Assembly (NCBI GenBank): GCA_964357635.1 | Contig: CAYHLZ010000001.1 | Span: 133,166-197,165, forward strand | Direction: 5' to 3' | DNA length: 64,000 bases | Origin: an uncultured Candidatus Saccharibacteria bacterium | GTDB taxonomy: Bacteria; Patescibacteriota; Minisyncoccia; Phycocordibacterales; Zambryskibacteraceae | Shown: piece by piece, positions 39,534 to 45,713 of the stretch | How the letters are laid out: each line of letters begins with the position of its first letter | Position numbering within the stretch: position 1 is the stretch's first letter | Notes under the pieces: generated by a model | What the model saw: the letters and a program-made list of their open reading frames with translations, nothing else | Told to the model about the DNA's origin: nothing | Databases searched by the model: none | Program-made: the position numbers and the translations under genes

Positions 39534-41495
39534 CTAAACATCAAGGACTGCTTTCTTGGCGTTAGATTGGATAAAACTTTTTCTTGACGGCACATCACTA
39601 CCCATAAGGACATCAAAGATACGATCTGCTTCCCTTCCATCTTCCACCGTGACCTGTTTCAAGACTCGTGCCTCTGGGTTCATGGTGGTTTCCCAAAGTT
39701 CTTCAGAATTCATTTCTCCCAAACCTTTGTAACGCTGGATGTCTGCACCGGAGACAGTTTTTGCATCCTTCTCTTTGTCGGAATAGGCATAAATAATTTC
39801 CTTACCTTTCTTAATTTTATAGAGCGGTGGTTGCGCTATGTAGACATGTCCGGCATCAACGAGAGGGCGGAAAAATCTATAAAGAAGCGTCAGTAACAAA
39901 GTTCTAATGTGTGCACCGTCCACATCAGCATCGGTGGCAATAATAATTTTATGATATCTAAGTTTTGTAATATCAAAGGTATCCCCTATGGCTGTACCAA
40001 AGGCCACTACCAAGTTTTTTATCTGTTCACTGGCAAGCATTTTATCAAGGCGGGCTCGTTCAATGTTTAAAATCTTACCGCGTAGTGGCAGGATGGCTTG
40101 AATGCGTCTGTCTCTTCCCATCTTGGCAGTACCACCCGCCGAGTCTCCCTCTACAATAAAAAGCTCTGACTCTTCTGCTGAACGCGACTGGCAGTCTGCA
40201 AGTTTACCTGGAAGAGTCATGCCTTCAAGTGCACCCTTACGCAAAACAGAATCTTTGGCTGCCTTTGCCGCCTTTCTCGCTTTAAGGGCCAACACTACTT
40301 TCTGGATAACACTCCTTGCATCATCTGGGTTTTCTTCTAGGAAGTTTGAGAAAGCGTCTCCGAAAACGCTTGTTACCATGCTCTGCGCCTCAACGCTACC
40401 GAGTTTAGACTTGGTTTGTCCCTCAAATTGAATTTCACGTAATTTTATTGAAATTACCGCTGTCAGACCTTCAAGAACGTCGTCTCCAGTGAAATTATCC
40501 TCTTTTTCACTTACCAGATTATTTTTGCGGGCATAAGTATTTAGGCTTCTCGTTAAAGCTGTTTTGAAACCCGTGACGTGAGTACCCCCTTCAGCGGTAT
40601 AAATGTTGTTGGCAAAAGGCAGGATTCTAGAAGAAATGTCATCAACATACTGAAGCGAAACCTCAACCGTTTCGTAATCATTACCATTGGCCTTCTTTTC
40701 AACATAGAAAATATTTTTGTGTATCGGCTTGGAGTGCTCGTTTTCAAATCGCACCAAGGATACAAGCCCTCCTTCAAAATAAAAAGACATTGATGGAGTA
40801 TCAAGTCCCAACTCTCTCATATAGAAGACTTTAGAATCATCTACCTTCGCTATCTCTCTTGCGTCTAAAACAGAAATACGAAGACCCTTTACTAAATAAG
40901 CTTGCTGGCGAAGATGGTTGGCAATGCGGTCAAAGTTAAAGTTGGTGTCTGGGAAAATGGCGGAGTCTGGTTGAAAAGTGATAATAGTGCCGTTAAGTTT
41001 TGAGCTACCAATCTTTTTAACGGCGCTTTTACGTTTACCTTGGCTGTATTCTTGCATAAAGACACCACCGTCTCTGTGCACCTCTGCCTTGCAGTATATT
41101 GACAAGGCGTTCACCACGGAACCACCAACACCATGGAGTCCGCCGGATATCTTGTATCCCTCACCACCAAACTTTCCTCCCGCGTGCAAGGTTGTCATGA
41201 TAGTCTCAAGAGCAGAAACTTTTGTTTGCTTGTGGGTATCAACTGGGATACCTCTGCCGTTGTCTGCCACTCGTACCCTGTTTCCTGGCATCAAGGTAAT
41301 CTCTATGTTATTGGCAAAGCCACCCATGGCTTCGTCCCTAGAGTTGTCAAATATCTCCGTTACCAAGTGGTGAAGACCATCTGGTCCGGTGGTACCAATA
41401 TACATACCCGGTCGCTTGCGGACCGGTTCTAGACCCTCTAGAACTGTGATAGATTCAGCACTGTAATTGCCACTAGTTTTGACTGGTTTCGGCAT
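39534..41495 (-). CDS. gyrB: DNA gyrase subunit B
   Basis: 'YSAESITVLEGLEPVRKRPGMYIGTTGPDGLHHLVTEIFDNSRDEAMGG' GHKL ATPase domain. Toprim motifs 'EGDSAGG' and 'IIATDADVDGAHI'. Confidence 0.9.
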   Translation of the reverse strand: MPKPVKTSGNYSAESITVLEGLEPVRKRPGMYIGTTGPDGLHHLVTEIFDNSRDEAMGGFANNIEITLMPGNRVRVADNGRGIPVDTHKQTKVSALETIMTTLHAGGKFGGEGYKISGGLHGVGGSVVNALSIYCKAEVHRDGGVFMQEYSQGKRKSAVKKIGSSKLNGTIITFQPDSAIFPDTNFNFDRIANHLRQQAYLVKGLRISVLDAREIAKVDDSKVFYMRELGLDTPSMSFYFEGGLVSLVRFENEHSKPIHKNIFYVEKKANGNDYETVEVSLQYVDDISSRILPFANNIYTAEGGTHVTGFKTALTRSLNTYARKNNLVSEKEDNFTGDDVLEGLTAVISIKLREIQFEGQTKSKLGSVEAQSMVTSVFGDAFSNFLEENPDDARSVIQKVVLALKARKAAKAAKDSVLRKGALEGMTLPGKLADCQSRSAEESELFIVEGDSAGGTAKMGRDRRIQAILPLRGKILNIERARLDKMLASEQIKNLVVAFGTAIGDTFDITKLRYHKIIIATDADVDGAHIRTLLLTLLYRFFRPLVDAGHVYIAQPPLYKIKKGKEIIYAYSDKEKDAKTVSGADIQRYKGLGEMNSEELWETTMNPEARVLKQVTVEDGREADRIFDVLMGSDVPSRKSFIQSNAKKAVLDV

Positions 41496-41564: not shown

Positions 41565-42719
41565 TTAGACCCTGCGAATTTCGGCTCTAAAATCAGCCAC
41601 AGTCTTGTCTTCTAATCCAGCGTGCAAGGTGTTAACTTCTGCATTGGTTAAAGTTCTCTCTAGGCTCCTATAAGTGATACGGAAGGTATAACTTAACTTC
41701 CCTTCTCCGAACTTTTTATCATTCTCAAATTTGTCTAAAAGAAGAACTTCTTCCGCAAAATCGCCAAGGTGGTCTCGAATTAAGTCAAAATAATTGTTCG
41801 GGATAAAGCTTTTAGGAACAACAAAAGAGATGTCACGGACGACTGGTGGGAACTTAGAAACCTCTTTAAACTTGTTACCAAGCTTTAACTGCTTCAGGAC
41901 CCGCTCGTCTTCTGACCAGAGAAGTCTAATATCCGGTAGATCCATGGAAGCGATTGCCAAACGCTCAAGACCAAAGCCGAATGCCCAGCCGTTGTAACCC
42001 TCCAGTCCAAAGTTTGATAAAACAGTCTTTCTCGGCAGACCAGAACCAAGCATTTCCATCCAGTTACCATTGATTTTTGCCTCCATCTCAAAACTTGGAT
42101 CAGTATAAGGAAAGTTGTGATCATAGAATCGGAATTCAACTTTATCTCCAAATATGTTTCTAGCAATTTCACTTAGAACATTTTTAAGATCTTCCGGAGT
42201 TACCTTTTGTTTTGAATCAGGAGCAAGATATAGTCCACCTATCTGATGGAAGACGTTCATGTGTTTCCTGTCAATCTCGTCTTTGCGATAAACTTTACCG
42301 TAACAGATTACCCCCAAAGATTCTTTATTCTCAATTTTCTCCTTAATTTCTGGATGATTAAGAAAGTAGTACCACATAACTGTGTCATGAGTGCGCAAGA
42401 TGAAATCATCGTTTACATAATATGTATCTGATTTACTTCTTGCGGGATGTCCTACTGGCATGTTGAAAAGGTCAAAAGTAACTTGAGTTGGCACTATTTC
42501 AGGAATTTTAATAACATCAAAACCCTTTAAACCTGCTGTTTTTAGGGTTTTTTCTACAATCTCATGAAGTGGACTTCCTTGGGTACGCGAAAGGTCTTTC
42601 ATGTTTAAAAACCGCCTTAGGCGCTCTGATTCTGGGTCTTTCTTCTTCCCCAGCTCTTTCAAAAGCTTCTTTTCCTCCTCTGATTCAATGATTATAGTTT
42701 CGTGCATGTAATCACTCAT
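41565..42719 (-). CDS. pheS: Phenylalanyl-tRNA synthetase alpha-type catalytic subunit fused to a C-terminal FDX-ACB (PheT-type anticodon-binding) domain
   Basis: Class II core containing 'FPYTDPSFEMEAK...GWAFGFGLERLAIA'. The C-terminal ~100 aa 'SKFPPVVRDISFVVPK...KLSYTFRITYRSLERTLTNAEVN' matches the FDX-ACB domain normally found at the C-terminus of PheT. No pheT is adjacent. Confidence 0.85.
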   Translation of the reverse strand: MSDYMHETIIIESEEEKKLLKELGKKKDPESERLRRFLNMKDLSRTQGSPLHEIVEKTLKTAGLKGFDVIKIPEIVPTQVTFDLFNMPVGHPARSKSDTYYVNDDFILRTHDTVMWYYFLNHPEIKEKIENKESLGVICYGKVYRKDEIDRKHMNVFHQIGGLYLAPDSKQKVTPEDLKNVLSEIARNIFGDKVEFRFYDHNFPYTDPSFEMEAKINGNWMEMLGSGLPRKTVLSNFGLEGYNGWAFGFGLERLAIASMDLPDIRLLWSEDERVLKQLKLGNKFKEVSKFPPVVRDISFVVPKSFIPNNYFDLIRDHLGDFAEEVLLLDKFENDKKFGEGKLSYTFRITYRSLERTLTNAEVNTLHAGLEDKTVADFRAEIRRV

Positions 42720-42784
42720 TATACGAAAAAAGCTTGAAAAAGTCTAAATAAGCCTATACAATCTAGCAATTGTAGTTTCAAGTC

Positions 42785-44023
42785 ATGGACATCCAAGATA
42801 TTATTTTATACGTCTCGCTCTTTATCTCTCTCTTTTTTGAGGTTTTTCTTTTGATTACTTATCTCGAAGTGCGCGAGGAGCTTGTTTTGGAAAAAAGACA
42901 TCTTGCTAAAGATATAAAACAGTTTCCAACGGTAAGCATTATTGTGCCATGTTTCAATGAGGAAAAAACAGTTGTCTCCACCTTAGAGTCACTTCTCAAG
43001 CTTGATTATCCTAAAGAAAAACTTTCTATCATTGTTGTGGACGATGGCTCAACTGATAACACGGCCGAAGAACTTCTTAAATTTAAAGAGCACTCTCAAA
43101 TCAGTATTTTGTCTAAAACGAATGGTGGTAAGCACACAGCGCTTAATTTTGCTCTAGAGAAGATAAATACTGACTTAGTTGGATGTCTTGATGCTGATTC
43201 TTTTGTTAATCCCGACGCGTTAAAAAAGATTATTCCCTTCTTTGATGATCTGGATATTAAGGCTGTTACCCCGTCTATCAAGGTATTTGAGCCTAAAAGC
43301 GTCTTACAATATGTGCAAAAGATTGAATACAGCTGGGGAATATTCTTGCGCCGAATGCTCTCATCTTTAGGGGCACTCTATATTACCCCTGGGCCATTCT
43401 CAATTTTTCGCACCCAAGTGTTCAAAAGTCTCGGTGGATATGTGCACGGGCACCACACGGAAGATTTGGAAATGGCCCTACGTCTTCAGAAAAATCGCTA
43501 CAAAATTGTTAACTCTCATGGTGCGCATGTCTATACCTCTACCCCAGCGCAACTCCAGGGACTTTTTAAGCAAAGAGTTCGTTGGACATACGGTTTTCTA
43601 AATAACGCTATAGATTACCGAGAAATGTTCTTTAATAAAAAATATGGCAATATTGGCTTCTTTATTCTCCCTATCGCGACCGTCTCAATTTTCACTGTTC
43701 TATACACTGTTGGCAATGTAGTCTGGAACAGTCTGTCCAGGGTTTTTGACGCAGTAATCAGATATCGTACTGTTGGCATAAGTTGGGAATTCCCTTCTTT
43801 TGATTGGTATTTTCTCAATACCAATGTTACGGCAATTCTTGCCATAAGTGCTATCATATTTACTTTTGTGATTCTTTACCTCTCAATCAAGATGGCTGAC
43901 GGTAAAGCCAAGTTCTCAAAAGGCGTTTTCTATTATCTGGTACTCTACATTTTCCTAGTGCCCTTGTGGTTGACCAAAGCACTGTTTAACACCATTTTTA
44001 AGAGACAAATCAGCTGGAGATGA
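42785..44023 (+). CDS. Processive family-2 glycosyltransferase (PgaC/NodC/cellulose-synthase-like), membrane-embedded
   Basis: 'VSIIVPCFNEE', 'VVDDGSTDNT', 'LDADS' and 'QRVRWTYG' (QxxRW motif). Multiple C-terminal TM segments. Confidence 0.85.
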   Translation: MDIQDIILYVSLFISLFFEVFLLITYLEVREELVLEKRHLAKDIKQFPTVSIIVPCFNEEKTVVSTLESLLKLDYPKEKLSIIVVDDGSTDNTAEELLKFKEHSQISILSKTNGGKHTALNFALEKINTDLVGCLDADSFVNPDALKKIIPFFDDLDIKAVTPSIKVFEPKSVLQYVQKIEYSWGIFLRRMLSSLGALYITPGPFSIFRTQVFKSLGGYVHGHHTEDLEMALRLQKNRYKIVNSHGAHVYTSTPAQLQGLFKQRVRWTYGFLNNAIDYREMFFNKKYGNIGFFILPIATVSIFTVLYTVGNVVWNSLSRVFDAVIRYRTVGISWEFPSFDWYFLNTNVTAILAISAIIFTFVILYLSIKMADGKAKFSKGVFYYLVLYIFLVPLWLTKALFNTIFKRQISWR

Positions 44024-45260: not shown

Positions 45261-45713
45261 TTAGTCTAAAGAAAAACGCACGAAGCGTCCCACCTCGGTT
45301 CTCTCACCAAATTTCTGAACGGTGTTGCTTATAAGGTCACTTACTTTTAGTGACGGGTCCTTGATAAATGGTTGTTCTAGAAGTTCTTTGGTATCAGAAG
45401 GCTTCATGGCAGCAATGTGCATACCAATATCACGAGCCACTGATTTAAATTCAGGATTTTTAGAAACGAAATCCGTTTCGCACAGAAGCTCAAGCATTAC
45501 TCCCACCTTTTCTCCGGTGTGAATATAAGAAGCGACAACGCCTGCGCCTAGGGTGCGGTCACCTTTTTTGCGAGCGATTTCATTGCCTTTCTTTTTAAGT
45601 AGTTCTATTGCCTTACTTTTGTCTCCCTTAGCCTCTTCAAGCGCCTTTTGGCACTGCATTACAGAAAGACCAGTTTCCTCGCGTAGGGCTTTTATTTCCT
45701 TTGTGGTTATCAT
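45261..45713 (-). CDS. tsf: Elongation factor Ts, short form (150 aa)
   Basis: 'ITTKEIKALREETGLSVMQCQKALEEAKGDKSKAIELLKKKG' UBA-like N-terminus plus a single dimerisation core. Confidence 0.85.
   Translation of the reverse strand: MITTKEIKALREETGLSVMQCQKALEEAKGDKSKAIELLKKKGNEIARKKGDRTLGAGVVASYIHTGEKVGVMLELLCETDFVSKNPEFKSVARDIGMHIAAMKPSDTKELLEQPFIKDPSLKVSDLISNTVQKFGERTEVGRFVRFSLD

What the first reader, a model, noticed from the sequence alone, without database searches (positions are those of the whole stretch)
41565..42719. PheS fused to the PheT-type FDX-ACB anticodon-binding domain, with no pheT adjacent: a candidate monomeric, mitochondria-like PheRS in a bacterium
The protein has the class II catalytic core of PheS, containing FPYTDPSFE and GWAFGFGLERLAIA. 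Its last ~100 residues (SKFPPVVRDISFVVP...KLSYTFRITYRSLERTLTNAEVN) match the ferredoxin-fold anticodon-binding domain. In bacteria that domain ends PheT. In mitochondria it is fused to the single-chain PheRS. The canonical pheS-pheT operon partner is absent: the downstream gene is gyrB and the upstream gene is a glycosyltransferase. This suggests the (alpha-beta)2 enzyme has been reduced to a single chain.
Basis: partly seen in the sequence, partly recalled or inferred. Interest (0 to 1): 0.6.

Follow-up and report, generated by a model that had tools for sequence, protein, structure and literature searches.

The report
Bacterial single-chain phenylalanyl-tRNA synthetase
This groundwater bacterium, like hundreds of related ultra-small bacterial species, appears to charge tRNA-Phe with a compact one-piece enzyme of the type previously described for mitochondria, not the four-subunit enzyme that reviews describe as universal in prokaryotes.

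Summary
Window 41565..42707 (-) encodes a 380-aa protein; the first ATG, at 42719, probably lies inside the promoter. The protein is a PheS class II catalytic core (PF01409, E=2.5e-53) fused to a PheT-type FDX-ACB anticodon-binding domain (PF03147, E=1e-19).

It is 35% identical end to end to human mitochondrial PheRS. Its AlphaFold model (pLDDT 93) superposes on 3CMQ (TM 0.79). The catalytic motifs and all four G34-contact residues are conserved.

I found no pheT and no second pheS in the window, in 20 kb of extra flank, or in 1.35 Mb around 80 homologous loci.

At least 597 GTDB species carry the gene, mostly Paceibacteria. It evolves as slowly as GyrB. In a public marker matrix, 32 of 273 CPR genomes have FDX-ACB without PheT's B5 domain, and 31 of those 32 also lack the PheS N-terminal domain.

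Best reading: this is the organism's only PheRS, a single chain without an editing domain, in a bacterial sister clade of mitochondrial PheRS.

Still untested: whole-genome absence of pheT in this MAG, oligomeric state, and enzyme activity. NCBI labels the protein "hypothetical", and I found no paper describing it.

The parts
41565..42707 (-). CDS of the single-chain PheRS (380 aa plus stop), using the second ATG as the start
   Evidence: ORF. Homologs, including the 100%-identical P0001, are 380 aa. Gene callers place the same start on four independent assemblies.
42708..42719 (-). Four extra codons (MSDY) upstream of the likely start. Probably not translated.
   Evidence: The first ATG overlaps the -10 hexamer of a promoter-like site. 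No homolog carries this extension.
42718..42746 (-). Sigma-70-like promoter match (TAGACT, 17 nt, TATAAT; 10 of 12). It would give a leaderless or nearly leaderless mRNA.
   Evidence: Consensus scan only. Inference, not shown.
42528..42707 (-). N-terminal helical region (residues 1-60). It contains the conserved ...DLSRTQGSP... segment and replaces the long coiled coil of canonical PheS.
   Evidence: AlphaFold helices at 10-21, 25-35 and 46-55. It aligns with the 'LPGRRIENGGLHP' segment of E. coli PheS. No PF02912 hit.
41889..42593 (-). Class II catalytic core (PheS type). Motif 2 is YRKDEID...FHQIGG, the Phe pocket is FPYTDPS, and motif 3 is GWAFGFGLER.
   Evidence: PF01409, E=2.5e-53. Invariant across 41 family members: R141, D143, E144, F153-H154-Q155, F199-P200, G240-G246 and R249. 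35% identical to both the FARS2 core and the E. coli PheS core.
41859..41888 (-). Linker or hinge between the core and the anticodon-binding domain. It starts where canonical PheS ends (...LKQFK).
   Evidence: Alignment with E. coli and T. thermophilus PheS. It corresponds to the hinge described for human mitochondrial PheRS.
41574..41858 (-). FDX-ACB (B8-type) anticodon-binding domain carrying the G34-contact residues D325, F327, S339 and R378 (380-aa numbering)
   Evidence: PF03147, E=1e-19, full-length profile match. 42% identical to the FARS2 ABD (E=3e-23) versus 24% to E. coli PheT B8 (E=2e-5). The role of these residues comes from PMC7540514. Invariance.
39534..41495 (-). gyrB, immediately downstream on the same strand. 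Context only, not part of the enzyme.
   Evidence: Pfam domains. gyrB is directly downstream in 24 of the 55 related loci that have gyrB within the flank.

Best explanation
The gene encodes a single-chain phenylalanyl-tRNA synthetase with the same architecture as mitochondrial PheRS (family PheRS-M). It is most likely the only PheRS of this Patescibacteria (class Paceibacteria/Minisyncoccia) cell.

Proposed mechanism:
1. The class II core activates Phe with ATP and transfers it to A76 of tRNA-Phe.
2. The C-terminal FDX-ACB domain, joined by a short hinge, reads anticodon base G34. An Asp (D325) hydrogen-bonds N1/N2, an aromatic residue (F327) stacks on the base, and a Ser (S339) and the near-C-terminal Arg (R378) contact O6/N7.
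3. As in the human enzyme, the domain probably swings from a closed resting state to an open tRNA-bound state.
4. The enzyme has no B3/B4 editing domain, so accuracy must come from the synthetic site alone.

What is shown: the domain architecture, the conservation of catalytic and G34-contact residues, the predicted fold, the wide distribution, strong purifying selection, and the absence of pheT near the gene.

What is inferred: enzyme activity, monomeric state, the conformational switch, and the complete absence of canonical pheS/pheT from this genome.
For: **Architecture and homology**
- PF01409 plus PF03147 are present and PF02912 is absent.
- The best PDB matches are human mitochondrial PheRS at E=2e-63, versus bacterial PheS at about 5e-32.
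- The protein is 35% identical to FARS2 over residues 23-382 versus 54-450, E=7e-73.

**Structure**
- The AlphaFold model has pLDDT 93.4 and pTM 0.90.
- It superposes on 3CMQ with TM 0.79/0.74 and 3.3 A over 387 columns. Canonical PheS chains cover only the core, with TMq about 0.53.

**Functional residues**
- Motif 2 and motif 3 residues and the equivalents of human Asp364, Ser375 and Arg414 are invariant in 41 sequences that are only 40-83% identical to the query. The Phe366 position stays aromatic.

**Selection**
- Across 80 species, mean identity to the query is 66.9%. GyrB is 66.2%, PrfA 60.3%, RpsB 55.6% and Tsf 52.9%.
- pN/pS is 0.16-0.24 with dS saturated.

**Distribution**
- More than 7000 database proteins match.
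- At least 597 GTDB species representatives carry a relative, including a closed 829-kb chromosome.

**No canonical partner**
- None in the window, none in 10 kb of extra flank on each side, and none in 1.35 Mb around 84 loci.

**Genome level**
- Among 273 public CPR genomes, 32 have FDX-ACB without B5. In canonical PheT these two domains sit on one polypeptide, so incomplete assembly cannot produce this pattern.
- 31 of those 32 also lack the PheS N-terminal domain, against 102 of 146 having it when B5 and FDX-ACB are both present (Fisher p=6e-13).
- These genomes are as complete as the others and share a distinct marker profile.

**Context**
- The gene sits among housekeeping genes: gyrB, mraZ-rsmH, rpsB-tsf and prfA.
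Against: - Only about 84 kb of this genome could be inspected, so a pheST operon elsewhere is not excluded.
- Some Parcubacteria do keep a canonical pheT-pheS pair (PMX_810_sub). The marker matrix cannot show whether some genomes carry both forms.
- The matrix genomes are anonymous, and I transcribed the rows by hand.
- The protein scores just below the curated cutoff of the mitochondrial model TIGR00469 (242.4 versus 258.35).
- In the query's clade, the motif 2 acidic residue (Glu220 in T. thermophilus, Glu in human, Asp in other bacterial members) is Gly. An Asp appears instead next to the conserved His (THDT). This holds in 120 of 120 sequences. Whether this preserves binding of the Phe amino group is untested.
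- There are no biochemical data, and the oligomeric state is unknown.
- AlphaFold was trained on 3CMQ, so the closed-state resemblance may be partly learned.
Confidence: 0.8

Rival explanations
1. The protein is an accessory paralog. A canonical pheS-pheT operon lies elsewhere in the genome, and this fused protein does something else: a second PheRS for stress conditions, a tRNA-dependent or tRNA-independent amino-acid ligase, or something like NCBI's 'PheS-related mystery ligase SrmL'.
For: - NCBIfam lists SrmL (NF051887) as the second-best hit, 216.5 bits over nearly the whole model, so bacterial PheS-plus-ABD paralogs of unknown role exist.
- Some Parcubacteria have canonical pheST.
- Most of this genome could not be inspected.
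- The query clade has lost the motif 2 carboxylate.
Against: - The SrmL score is far below the cutoff (216.5 versus 300). None of 20 related representatives reaches it either.
- 32 CPR genomes have FDX-ACB but neither B5 nor, in 31 of them, the PheS N-terminal domain.
- The gene is as conserved as GyrB, and each of the 84 fetched loci holds exactly one copy.
- The context is housekeeping genes rather than a biosynthetic cluster.
- The G34-reading residues are invariant, which only makes sense if the substrate is a tRNA with a G34 anticodon.
Confidence: 0.12
2. The protein is a genuine PheRS but not a free-standing monomer. It needs a partner: itself, as a class II-type homodimer, or a separate tRNA-binding protein such as the stand-alone PheT-B2-like OB-fold protein encoded just upstream in some relatives.
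For: - In 11 of 80 related loci, a 134-aa tRNA_bind (PF01588) gene ends a few nucleotides before the fused gene on the same strand. It is most similar to PheT B2 domains.
- Most class II synthetases are dimers (general knowledge).
Against: - The window has no such gene, and neither do the other 69 loci within +/-10 kb.
- Mitochondrial PheRS is fully active as a monomer (PMC3275996).
- The B2 domain is reported to be dispensable for aminoacylation in E. coli PheRS. That reading rests on the title of Roy & Ibba 2006 as cited.
Confidence: 0.15
3. The gene is foreign or artefactual: a recent transfer from a eukaryote or giant virus, or a mis-binned or chimeric contig, and not a native bacterial gene.
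For: - The nearest characterised relatives are eukaryotic mitochondrial enzymes.
- Related compact forms are carried by giant viruses and a phage-like contig.
Against: - The same gene, with the same neighbours, is found on contigs from four assemblies (three independent ENA metagenome assemblies and one Logan assembly); the longest with the PheRS gene read here is 171 kb, and 265 kb is on record for P0001.
- GC content around the gene is unremarkable for the window.
- The bacterial proteins form their own clade, 199 of 200 bootstraps, separate from the eukaryotic and viral clade.
- Within that clade the protein is only 61-80% identical across species, tracking GyrB. This indicates long vertical inheritance.
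Confidence: 0.02

Closest known systems
Mitochondrial phenylalanyl-tRNA synthetase (human FARS2, yeast MSF1; family PheRS-M; TIGR00469; PDB 3CMQ and 3TUP)
   Same: - Same two-module architecture: PheS-type class II core plus a C-terminal FDX-ACB domain.
- No coiled-coil N-terminus, and no B1-B7 domains, so no editing site.
- 35% identity over the full length, and 42% in the anticodon-binding domain.
- Same G34-contact residues.
- The predicted fold superposes on the closed form 3CMQ.
   Different: - Encoded by a bacterium for its own cytoplasmic translation, with no transit peptide.
- Lacks the ~45-residue insertion after motif 2 that human FARS2 has.
- Has ~10 extra residues after the THxT segment and a different N-terminal motif (...DLSRTQGSP...).
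- Forms a separate clade.
- Scores below the curated TIGR00469 cutoff.
- The query clade has Gly in place of the motif 2 Glu.
Canonical bacterial (alpha-beta)2 PheRS (PheS TIGR00468 plus PheT TIGR00472; PDB 3PCO, 1PYS)
   Same: - The catalytic core is homologous to PheS (35% to E. coli).
- The C-terminal domain is homologous to the B8 domain at the end of PheT (24% to E. coli).
- The fusion point is exactly where PheS ends.
   Different: - One gene instead of the pheS-pheT operon.
- Lacks the PheS coiled coil and PheT domains B1-B7, including the B3/B4 editing site.
- Scores below both curated cutoffs (169.8 versus 237.45 and 64.6 versus 402.65).
- According to the 2010 review, neither alpha nor beta alone is active in the canonical enzyme.
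NCBIfam NF051887, 'PheS-related mystery ligase SrmL'
   Same: It is a bacterial family whose 349-position model aligns with residues 54-367 of the query, covering the core and most of the C-terminal domain.
   Different: The query scores 216.5 against a cutoff of 300. None of 20 relatives tested reaches the cutoff, and no database homolog carries that name. I found no literature on SrmL, so its biology could not be compared.
Virus-encoded compact PheRS-M-type proteins (giant-virus MAGs and a phage-like contig)
   Same: Same core-plus-FDX-ACB architecture in about 340-370 aa, with no transit peptide.
   Different: They pass the mitochondrial model's cutoff and cluster with eukaryotic sequences, not with the bacterial clade.

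Membership tests
PheRS-M (single-chain, mitochondrial-type PheRS; TIGR00469) | Class II PheS-type catalytic core | tested here: met
   PF01409, E=2.5e-53. Motif 2 and motif 3 residues are invariant in the family.
PheRS-M (single-chain, mitochondrial-type PheRS; TIGR00469) | FDX-ACB (B8-type) anticodon-binding domain fused to the C-terminus of the same chain | tested here: met
   PF03147, E=1e-19, profile positions 1-94 of 94. 42% identical to the FARS2 ABD.
PheRS-M (single-chain, mitochondrial-type PheRS; TIGR00469) | Absence of the PheS coiled-coil N-domain and of the PheT domains B1-B7 (no editing site) | tested here: met
   No PF02912, PF03483, PF03484 or PF01588 hit in the protein. The protein is 380 aa in total.
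PheRS-M (single-chain, mitochondrial-type PheRS; TIGR00469) | G34-recognition residues (human Asp364, Phe366, Ser375, Arg414) | tested here: met
   The query equivalents are D325, F327, S339 and R378. D, S and R are invariant in 41 sequences, and the aromatic position is F or Y.
PheRS-M (single-chain, mitochondrial-type PheRS; TIGR00469) | Full-length fold like 3CMQ | tested here: met
   Predicted model only: TM 0.79/0.74, rmsd 3.3 A over 387 columns.
PheRS-M (single-chain, mitochondrial-type PheRS; TIGR00469) | Score above the curated equivalog cutoff of TIGR00469 (258.35 bits) | tested here: not met
   The query scores 242.4 bits. The related P0121 scores 264.3 and passes. The model was built from eukaryotic sequences, and the bacterial clade straddles its cutoff.
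PheRS-M (single-chain, mitochondrial-type PheRS; TIGR00469) | Active as a monomer in charging tRNA-Phe | not testable with these tools
   Needs recombinant protein, SEC-MALS and aminoacylation assays.
PheRS-M (single-chain, mitochondrial-type PheRS; TIGR00469) | Replaces the heterotetrameric enzyme in its compartment or cell | tested here: inconclusive
   There is no pheT or second pheS in about 84 kb of this genome. 32 of 273 CPR genomes show FDX-ACB without B5 or the PheS N-domain. The rest of this MAG could not be read.
Canonical bacterial PheS (TIGR00468) | Score above the curated cutoff (237.45 bits) and presence of the Phe_tRNA-synt_N coiled coil | tested here: not met
   169.8 bits. No PF02912 hit.
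Canonical bacterial PheS (TIGR00468) | Adjacent pheT partner gene | tested here: not met
   The neighbours are gyrB and a GT2 gene. No B3_4 or B5 signal in 84 loci.
SrmL, PheS-related mystery ligase (NF051887) | Score above the curated cutoff (300 bits) | tested here: not met
   216.5 bits. The 20 relatives tested score 195-274 bits.

The most novel reading that the evidence does not exclude
The single-chain PheRS was not invented inside eukaryotes. One ancient fusion of a PheS core to a PheT B8 domain gave rise both to the Patescibacteria enzyme and to the mitochondrial or plastid enzyme of all eukaryotes. On this reading, eukaryotes acquired their organellar PheRS by lateral transfer from a CPR-like, or other non-alphaproteobacterial, bacterium. 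The less likely alternative is that the ancestor of a large CPR radiation took it from an early eukaryote.

Either way, a major bacterial radiation translates without any PheRS editing domain. In some of its lineages, a surviving fragment of PheT (a free B2 domain) still works with the enzyme in trans.
Probability: 0.35. Interest if true: 0.8.

Novelty: new member of a known kind. Interest (0 to 1): 0.62.

Why it matters
**It contradicts the review-level picture of PheRS.** Reviews describe three forms of PheRS. [quoted passage not shown] A conserved bacterial clade of the single-chain form, present in at least 597 species, contradicts that.

**It makes three questions testable.**
- Where did mitochondrial PheRS come from? 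The bacterial clade is its sister, and the two share an anticodon-binding domain much closer to each other than to PheT.
- How does a free-living or episymbiotic bacterium keep Phe/Tyr fidelity without the B3/B4 editing site?
- How small can a class II synthetase be in a cellular cytoplasm?

**It has practical consequences.**
- NCBI annotates these proteins as "hypothetical", so many Patescibacteria MAGs would appear to lack a recognisably annotated PheRS, and pheT-based markers will probably under-score them (inference).
- The enzyme is a compact candidate for orthogonal-translation engineering.

Tried and rejected
- **Whole-genome test for pheT in the source MAG.** Not possible. The tools return at most +/-10 kb around a gene, and I could only extend the window by 10 kb on each side.
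- **Published gene tables for cultivated Paceibacteria.** The M. archaeiphilus table is truncated in storage and has no Phe-related entry in the stored part, so it is uninformative. The PMX_810_sub table shows a canonical pheT-pheS pair, which proves the class is not uniform.
- **KO tables in two Hainich papers.** There are no K01889 or K01890 entries. One supplement turned out to be the anvi'o CPR marker matrix, which I used instead.
- **tRNA-Phe identity elements.** There is no tRNA-Phe gene in the window or in the 50 flanks scanned.
- **SrmL.** A literature search returned only unrelated acronyms, and no homolog reached the family cutoff. I rejected it as the family.
- **SepRS.** I considered it because Parcubacteria have unusual SepRS variants. 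I rejected it because the C-terminal domain is FDX-ACB, the best matches are PheRS, and the window encodes a normal CysRS.
- **First tree attempt.** It timed out, and I redid it with my own NJ code. With only two verified canonical outgroups, the deep rooting is weak.
- **Structural test of the Asp108/Gly157 swap.** Model coordinates are not exposed, so I could not measure distances.
- **Literature.** Seven searches found no description of a bacterial or CPR single-chain PheRS. Subscription journals are not covered, so prior description cannot be excluded.
- **Third large protein search.** No available query would have pulled out a PheT from the same genomes.
Full report
**1. The observation**

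Pfam finds the PheS-type class II core (PF01409, residues 43-277, E=2.5e-53) and a complete FDX-ACB domain (PF03147, residues 288-382, profile positions 1-94 of 94, E=1e-19). The canonical PheS N-terminal coiled-coil domain gives no hit.

Downstream on the same strand lies gyrB (39534..41495). Upstream, transcribed divergently, is a GT2 glycosyltransferase (42785..44023).

The same gene with the same neighbours occurs on contigs from four assemblies (three independent ENA metagenome assemblies and one Logan assembly) of Hainich groundwater (well H41, 0.1 um fraction). The longest contig read here with the PheRS gene is 171 kb, and 265 kb is on record for the identical protein P0001. NCBI labels the identical protein [quoted passage not shown].

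One correction to the coordinates. All close homologs are 380 aa. The first ATG overlaps the -10 hexamer of a promoter-like site, TAGACT-17 nt-TATAAT. The probable start is therefore the ATG at 42707, perhaps on a leaderless mRNA. The promoter is a consensus match only.

**2. What the protein resembles**

Against all PDB sequences, the best matches are human mitochondrial PheRS chains (E=2e-63). Bacterial PheS alpha chains reach about 5e-32, and PheT beta chains match only the last ~100 residues (E=1e-5).

Against a recalled FARS2 sequence, the protein is 35% identical from residue 23 to 382, E=7e-73. The aligned parts of that recalled sequence agree with the PDB alignment printed. Human FARS2 carries a ~45-residue insertion after motif 2 that this protein lacks.

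Split by domain:

| Region | vs human FARS2 | vs E. coli PheS or PheT |
|---|---|---|
| Anticodon-binding domain | 42% (E=3e-23) | 24% to PheT B8 (E=2e-5) |
| Catalytic core | 35% | 35% to PheS |

The multiple alignment shows that canonical PheS ends at ...LKQFK, exactly where the fused proteins continue into a short linker and the FDX-ACB domain.

An AlphaFold model built on a 41-sequence alignment is confident (mean pLDDT 93.4, pTM 0.90). It superposes over its whole length on the closed form of human mitochondrial PheRS (3CMQ: TM 0.79/0.74, 3.3 A over 387 columns). It fits the open tRNA-bound form less well (3TUP, TM 0.58). Canonical PheS chains match only on the core (TMq about 0.53). AlphaFold has seen 3CMQ, so the closed-state resemblance is suggestive rather than independent evidence.

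**3. Are the functional residues intact?**

In human mitochondrial PheRS, G34 of tRNA-Phe is read by four residues: Asp364 (whose loss abolishes activity), Phe366 (stacking), Ser375 and Arg414 (PMC7540514). By my count on the alignment, these correspond to D325, F327, S339 and R378 of the 380-aa protein.

In an alignment of 41 family members only 40-83% identical to the query, D325, S339 and R378 are invariant, and position 327 is F or Y. Also invariant are the motif 2 arginine and acidic residues (R141, D143, E144), F153-H154-Q155, F199-P200, the GWAFGFG..R motif 3, and the Ala that sets Phe specificity in E. coli. That last role is from my own knowledge of E. coli A294.

One irregularity stands out. 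The motif 2 carboxylate, which contacts the Phe amino group in T. thermophilus (Glu220, from my knowledge of that structure), varies by group:

| Group | THxT segment | Motif 2 |
|---|---|---|
| Query clade (120 of 120) | THDT | FHQxG |
| Other bacterial members (118 of 118) | TH(T/M/A)T | FHQxD |
| Mitochondrial and viral proteins | THTS | FHQxE |

In the model, D108 sits at the N-terminal cap of a helix next to the conserved His. This looks like a relocated carboxylate fixed in one clade. Whether it compensates is untested, and I count it as the main sequence-level caveat.

**4. Is it a one-off?**

No. The word-indexed search returned more than 7000 proteins at E<=1e-10. The best 120 are 345-445 aa (nearly all 375-404), all carry both Pfam domains, and all come from Patescibacteria, Parcubacteria, Paceibacterota or Minisyncoccia MAGs.

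The best 80 cover nearly every named Paceibacteria lineage: Zambryski-, Giovannoni-, Taylor-, Sungi-, Yanofsky-, Wolfe-, Nomura-, Jorgensen-, Harrison-, Kaiser- and Colwellbacteria. They include a closed 829-kb chromosome and contigs of 645 kb to 1.21 Mb.

More distant members occur in two other places:
- an Oligoflexia MAG (P0125, 42% identity);
- sequences with W at conserved Gly positions, which is what UGA=Gly genomes (Gracilibacteria or Absconditabacteria) look like when translated with the wrong code.

In the exhaustive representative search, only 220 clusters score better than 1e-30. Of the best 150, I fetched the 60 longest and read them. Apart from a few truncated or frameshifted entries (for example P0127, P0233), they carry the C-terminal FDX-ACB region, and none is a canonical PheS.

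**5. Is it the cell's PheRS or a paralog?**

*Direct evidence.*
- The window has no PheT domain in its ten largest ORFs.
- tblastn with E. coli PheT (verified identical to 3pco_B) hits only this gene's own tail.
- The window holds only one PheS-like gene.
- Ten more kilobases on each side of the window have no PheS or PheT domain.
- In 1.35 Mb around 84 loci there is exactly one PheS-like gene per locus and no B3_4, B5 or B6/7 signal.

*Selection.* Across 80 species the protein is on average 66.9% identical to the query. GyrB is 66.2%, PrfA 60.3%, RpsB 55.6% and Tsf 52.9%. pN/pS is 0.16-0.24 with synonymous sites saturated.

*Genome level.* Supplement 1 of PMC8672522 is anvi'o's CPR training matrix, giving presence or absence of single-copy Pfam markers in public CPR genomes. 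I transcribed 273 rows.
- Thirty-two genomes have FDX-ACB but not B5. In canonical PheT these two domains are on one polypeptide, so incomplete assembly cannot create this pattern.
- 31 of those 32 also lack the PheS N-terminal domain. By contrast, 102 of 146 genomes with both B5 and FDX-ACB have it (Fisher p=6e-13; p=9e-10 for the more complete genomes).
- The 32 genomes are as complete as the rest (0.54 versus 0.59 of the other markers). They also share a distinct profile: enolase is rare, and PNPase and RbfA are enriched. They are therefore a lineage and not detection noise.

*Limits.*
- The matrix genomes are anonymous, and my transcription was by hand.
- A genome with both forms would be counted as canonical.
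- At least one Parcubacteria genome (PMX_810_sub) has an ordinary pheT-pheS pair.

So replacement is well supported for a subset of CPR. For this particular MAG it is inferred.

**6. Family assignment**

NCBIfam ranks the mitochondrial model TIGR00469 first, at 242.4 bits against a cutoff of 258.35. Next come "PheS-related mystery ligase SrmL" (216.5 versus 300), canonical PheS (169.8 versus 237.45) and PheT (64.6 versus 402.65). The protein therefore fails every curated cutoff, which explains the "hypothetical protein" label.

A 57%-identical relative, P0121, passes TIGR00469 (264.3). None of 20 relatives reaches the SrmL cutoff, no homolog is named SrmL, and I found no paper on SrmL.

By architecture, residues and predicted fold, the protein works like PheRS-M. 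By the curated HMM it sits just outside the model, which was built from eukaryotic sequences.

**7. Phylogeny**

I built a neighbour-joining tree of 201 catalytic-core columns, excluding FDX-ACB. The outgroups were E. coli and T. thermophilus PheS, both verified against PDB.
- The bacterial fused proteins (query, other CPR, Oligoflexia, UGA=Gly lineages) form one clade in 199 of 200 bootstraps.
- That clade is sister to a clade of eukaryotic mitochondrial and compact sequences (126 of 200). Neither is nested in the other.

With two outgroups and a distance method, the root is weak. Combined with the much closer anticodon-binding domains and the identical fusion point, the simplest reading is a single fusion event ancestral to both clades. 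The direction of any transfer between bacteria and eukaryotes is open.

**8. Literature**

[quoted passage not shown] AARS Online and Douglas et al. 2023 list PheRS-M as a "mitochondrial-like" family typified by 3CMQ. Mukai et al. 2017 note only that many CPR PheRS-beta chains lack B2.

Seven full-text searches found no description of a bacterial single-chain PheRS. The library omits most subscription journals, so I cannot rule out an earlier report.

**9. Side findings**

- In 11 of 80 related loci, a 134-aa gene ends a few nucleotides upstream of the fused gene on the same strand. It is a stand-alone tRNA_bind OB fold (PF01588, E=1e-16 to 1e-17). It is most similar to the B2 domain of PheT (E=1e-20), ahead of a generic tRNA-binding protein (2e-13). 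The window lacks it. It looks like a surviving fragment of PheT that may help bind tRNA in trans.
- The compact 340-370-aa proteins that pass TIGR00469 are largely viral. One sits on a 160-kb phage-like contig. A scan of IMG/VR found 48 loci, many of them on giant-virus MAGs and contigs up to 1.47 Mb.

**10. Verdict**

The gene most likely encodes the sole, editing-less, single-chain PheRS of a Paceibacteria bacterium. It belongs to a large, previously unannotated bacterial sister clade of mitochondrial PheRS (confidence about 0.8).

It is a new member of a known kind and not a new mechanism. Its interest lies in its distribution, what it implies for the origin of mitochondrial PheRS, and what it implies for translational quality control in bacteria.

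Noticed in passing
L031 9582..9986 (+). Also L019, L026, L032, L036, L045, L047, L048, L052, L068 and L083, in each case just upstream of the fused gene.: A stand-alone ~134-aa tRNA_bind (PF01588) OB-fold gene ends a few nucleotides before the fused PheRS gene in 11 of 80 related loci. It is most similar to the B2 domain of PheT (35-44% to E. coli PheT residues ~41-150). It is absent from the window. It may be a remnant of PheT acting in trans.
   Followed up: partly
L085 (Logan SRR32456865, 160-kb contig) and L086-L133 (IMG/VR): Compact (340-370 aa) mitochondrial-type PheRS genes with no transit peptide sit on a phage-like contig (ThyX, dCMP deaminase, dNMP kinase, mostly unannotated same-strand genes). 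They also occur on 48 viral contigs, including giant-virus MAGs up to 1.47 Mb.
   Followed up: partly
window 42384..42386 (Asp108) and 42237..42239 (Gly157), 380-aa numbering: A clade-specific coupled substitution. All 120 closest homologs have THDT plus FHQxG. All 118 other bacterial family members have TH(T/M/A)T plus FHQxD. Mitochondrial types have THTS plus FHQxE. The motif 2 carboxylate seems to have moved. The query clade also has FPYT instead of FPFT.
   Followed up: partly
P0126 and P0129 (representative proteins; P0129 is on an 80-kb contig): These homologs have Trp at positions where Gly is otherwise conserved (for example NWRAFGIWVERIAM). This suggests genomes that read UGA as Gly (Gracilibacteria or Absconditabacteria) translated with the wrong code. 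The fused PheRS therefore extends beyond Paceibacteria.
   Followed up: no
P0125 (MBX7144632.1, Oligoflexia MAG, 41-kb contig) and its relatives P0283-P0291: A high-GC, non-CPR-labelled bacterium carries a 42%-identical fused PheRS. This could be a real occurrence outside Patescibacteria or a binning or labelling error. I did not check whether that genome also has pheST.
   Followed up: no
window 42718..42746 (-): A promoter-like site whose -10 box (TATAAT) contains the first ATG of the ORF. This implies that the second ATG (42707) is the start and that the mRNA is leaderless or nearly so.
   Followed up: partly
L011 and L037 (JACQLT010000001.1 and JACQLT010000003.1, same MAG): One MAG carries two copies of the fused gene on two long contigs (117 and 102 kb), both about 68-70% identical to the query. 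This could be a mixed bin or a true duplication.
   Followed up: no
L022 (JBEBJM010000053.1, labelled Nitrospira sp., 4.2-kb contig). Also many loci labelled 'uncultured Candidatus Saccharibacteria'.: The record titles conflict with the Paceibacteria-like gene content. They probably reflect bin contamination and generic pipeline labels, so organism names in these records should not be taken at face value.
   Followed up: no
window 45261..45713 (-): EF-Ts here is only 150 aa. From my own knowledge, typical bacterial EF-Ts is roughly twice that length. The same 150-aa gene is called on the independent assemblies.
   Followed up: no
L135 1..853 (just outside the window on the source contig): A gene for a 2927-residue protein with GH94, glycoamylase and beta-sandwich domains (cyclic beta-1,2-glucan synthase or phosphorylase-like). 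That is very large for such a small genome.
   Followed up: no
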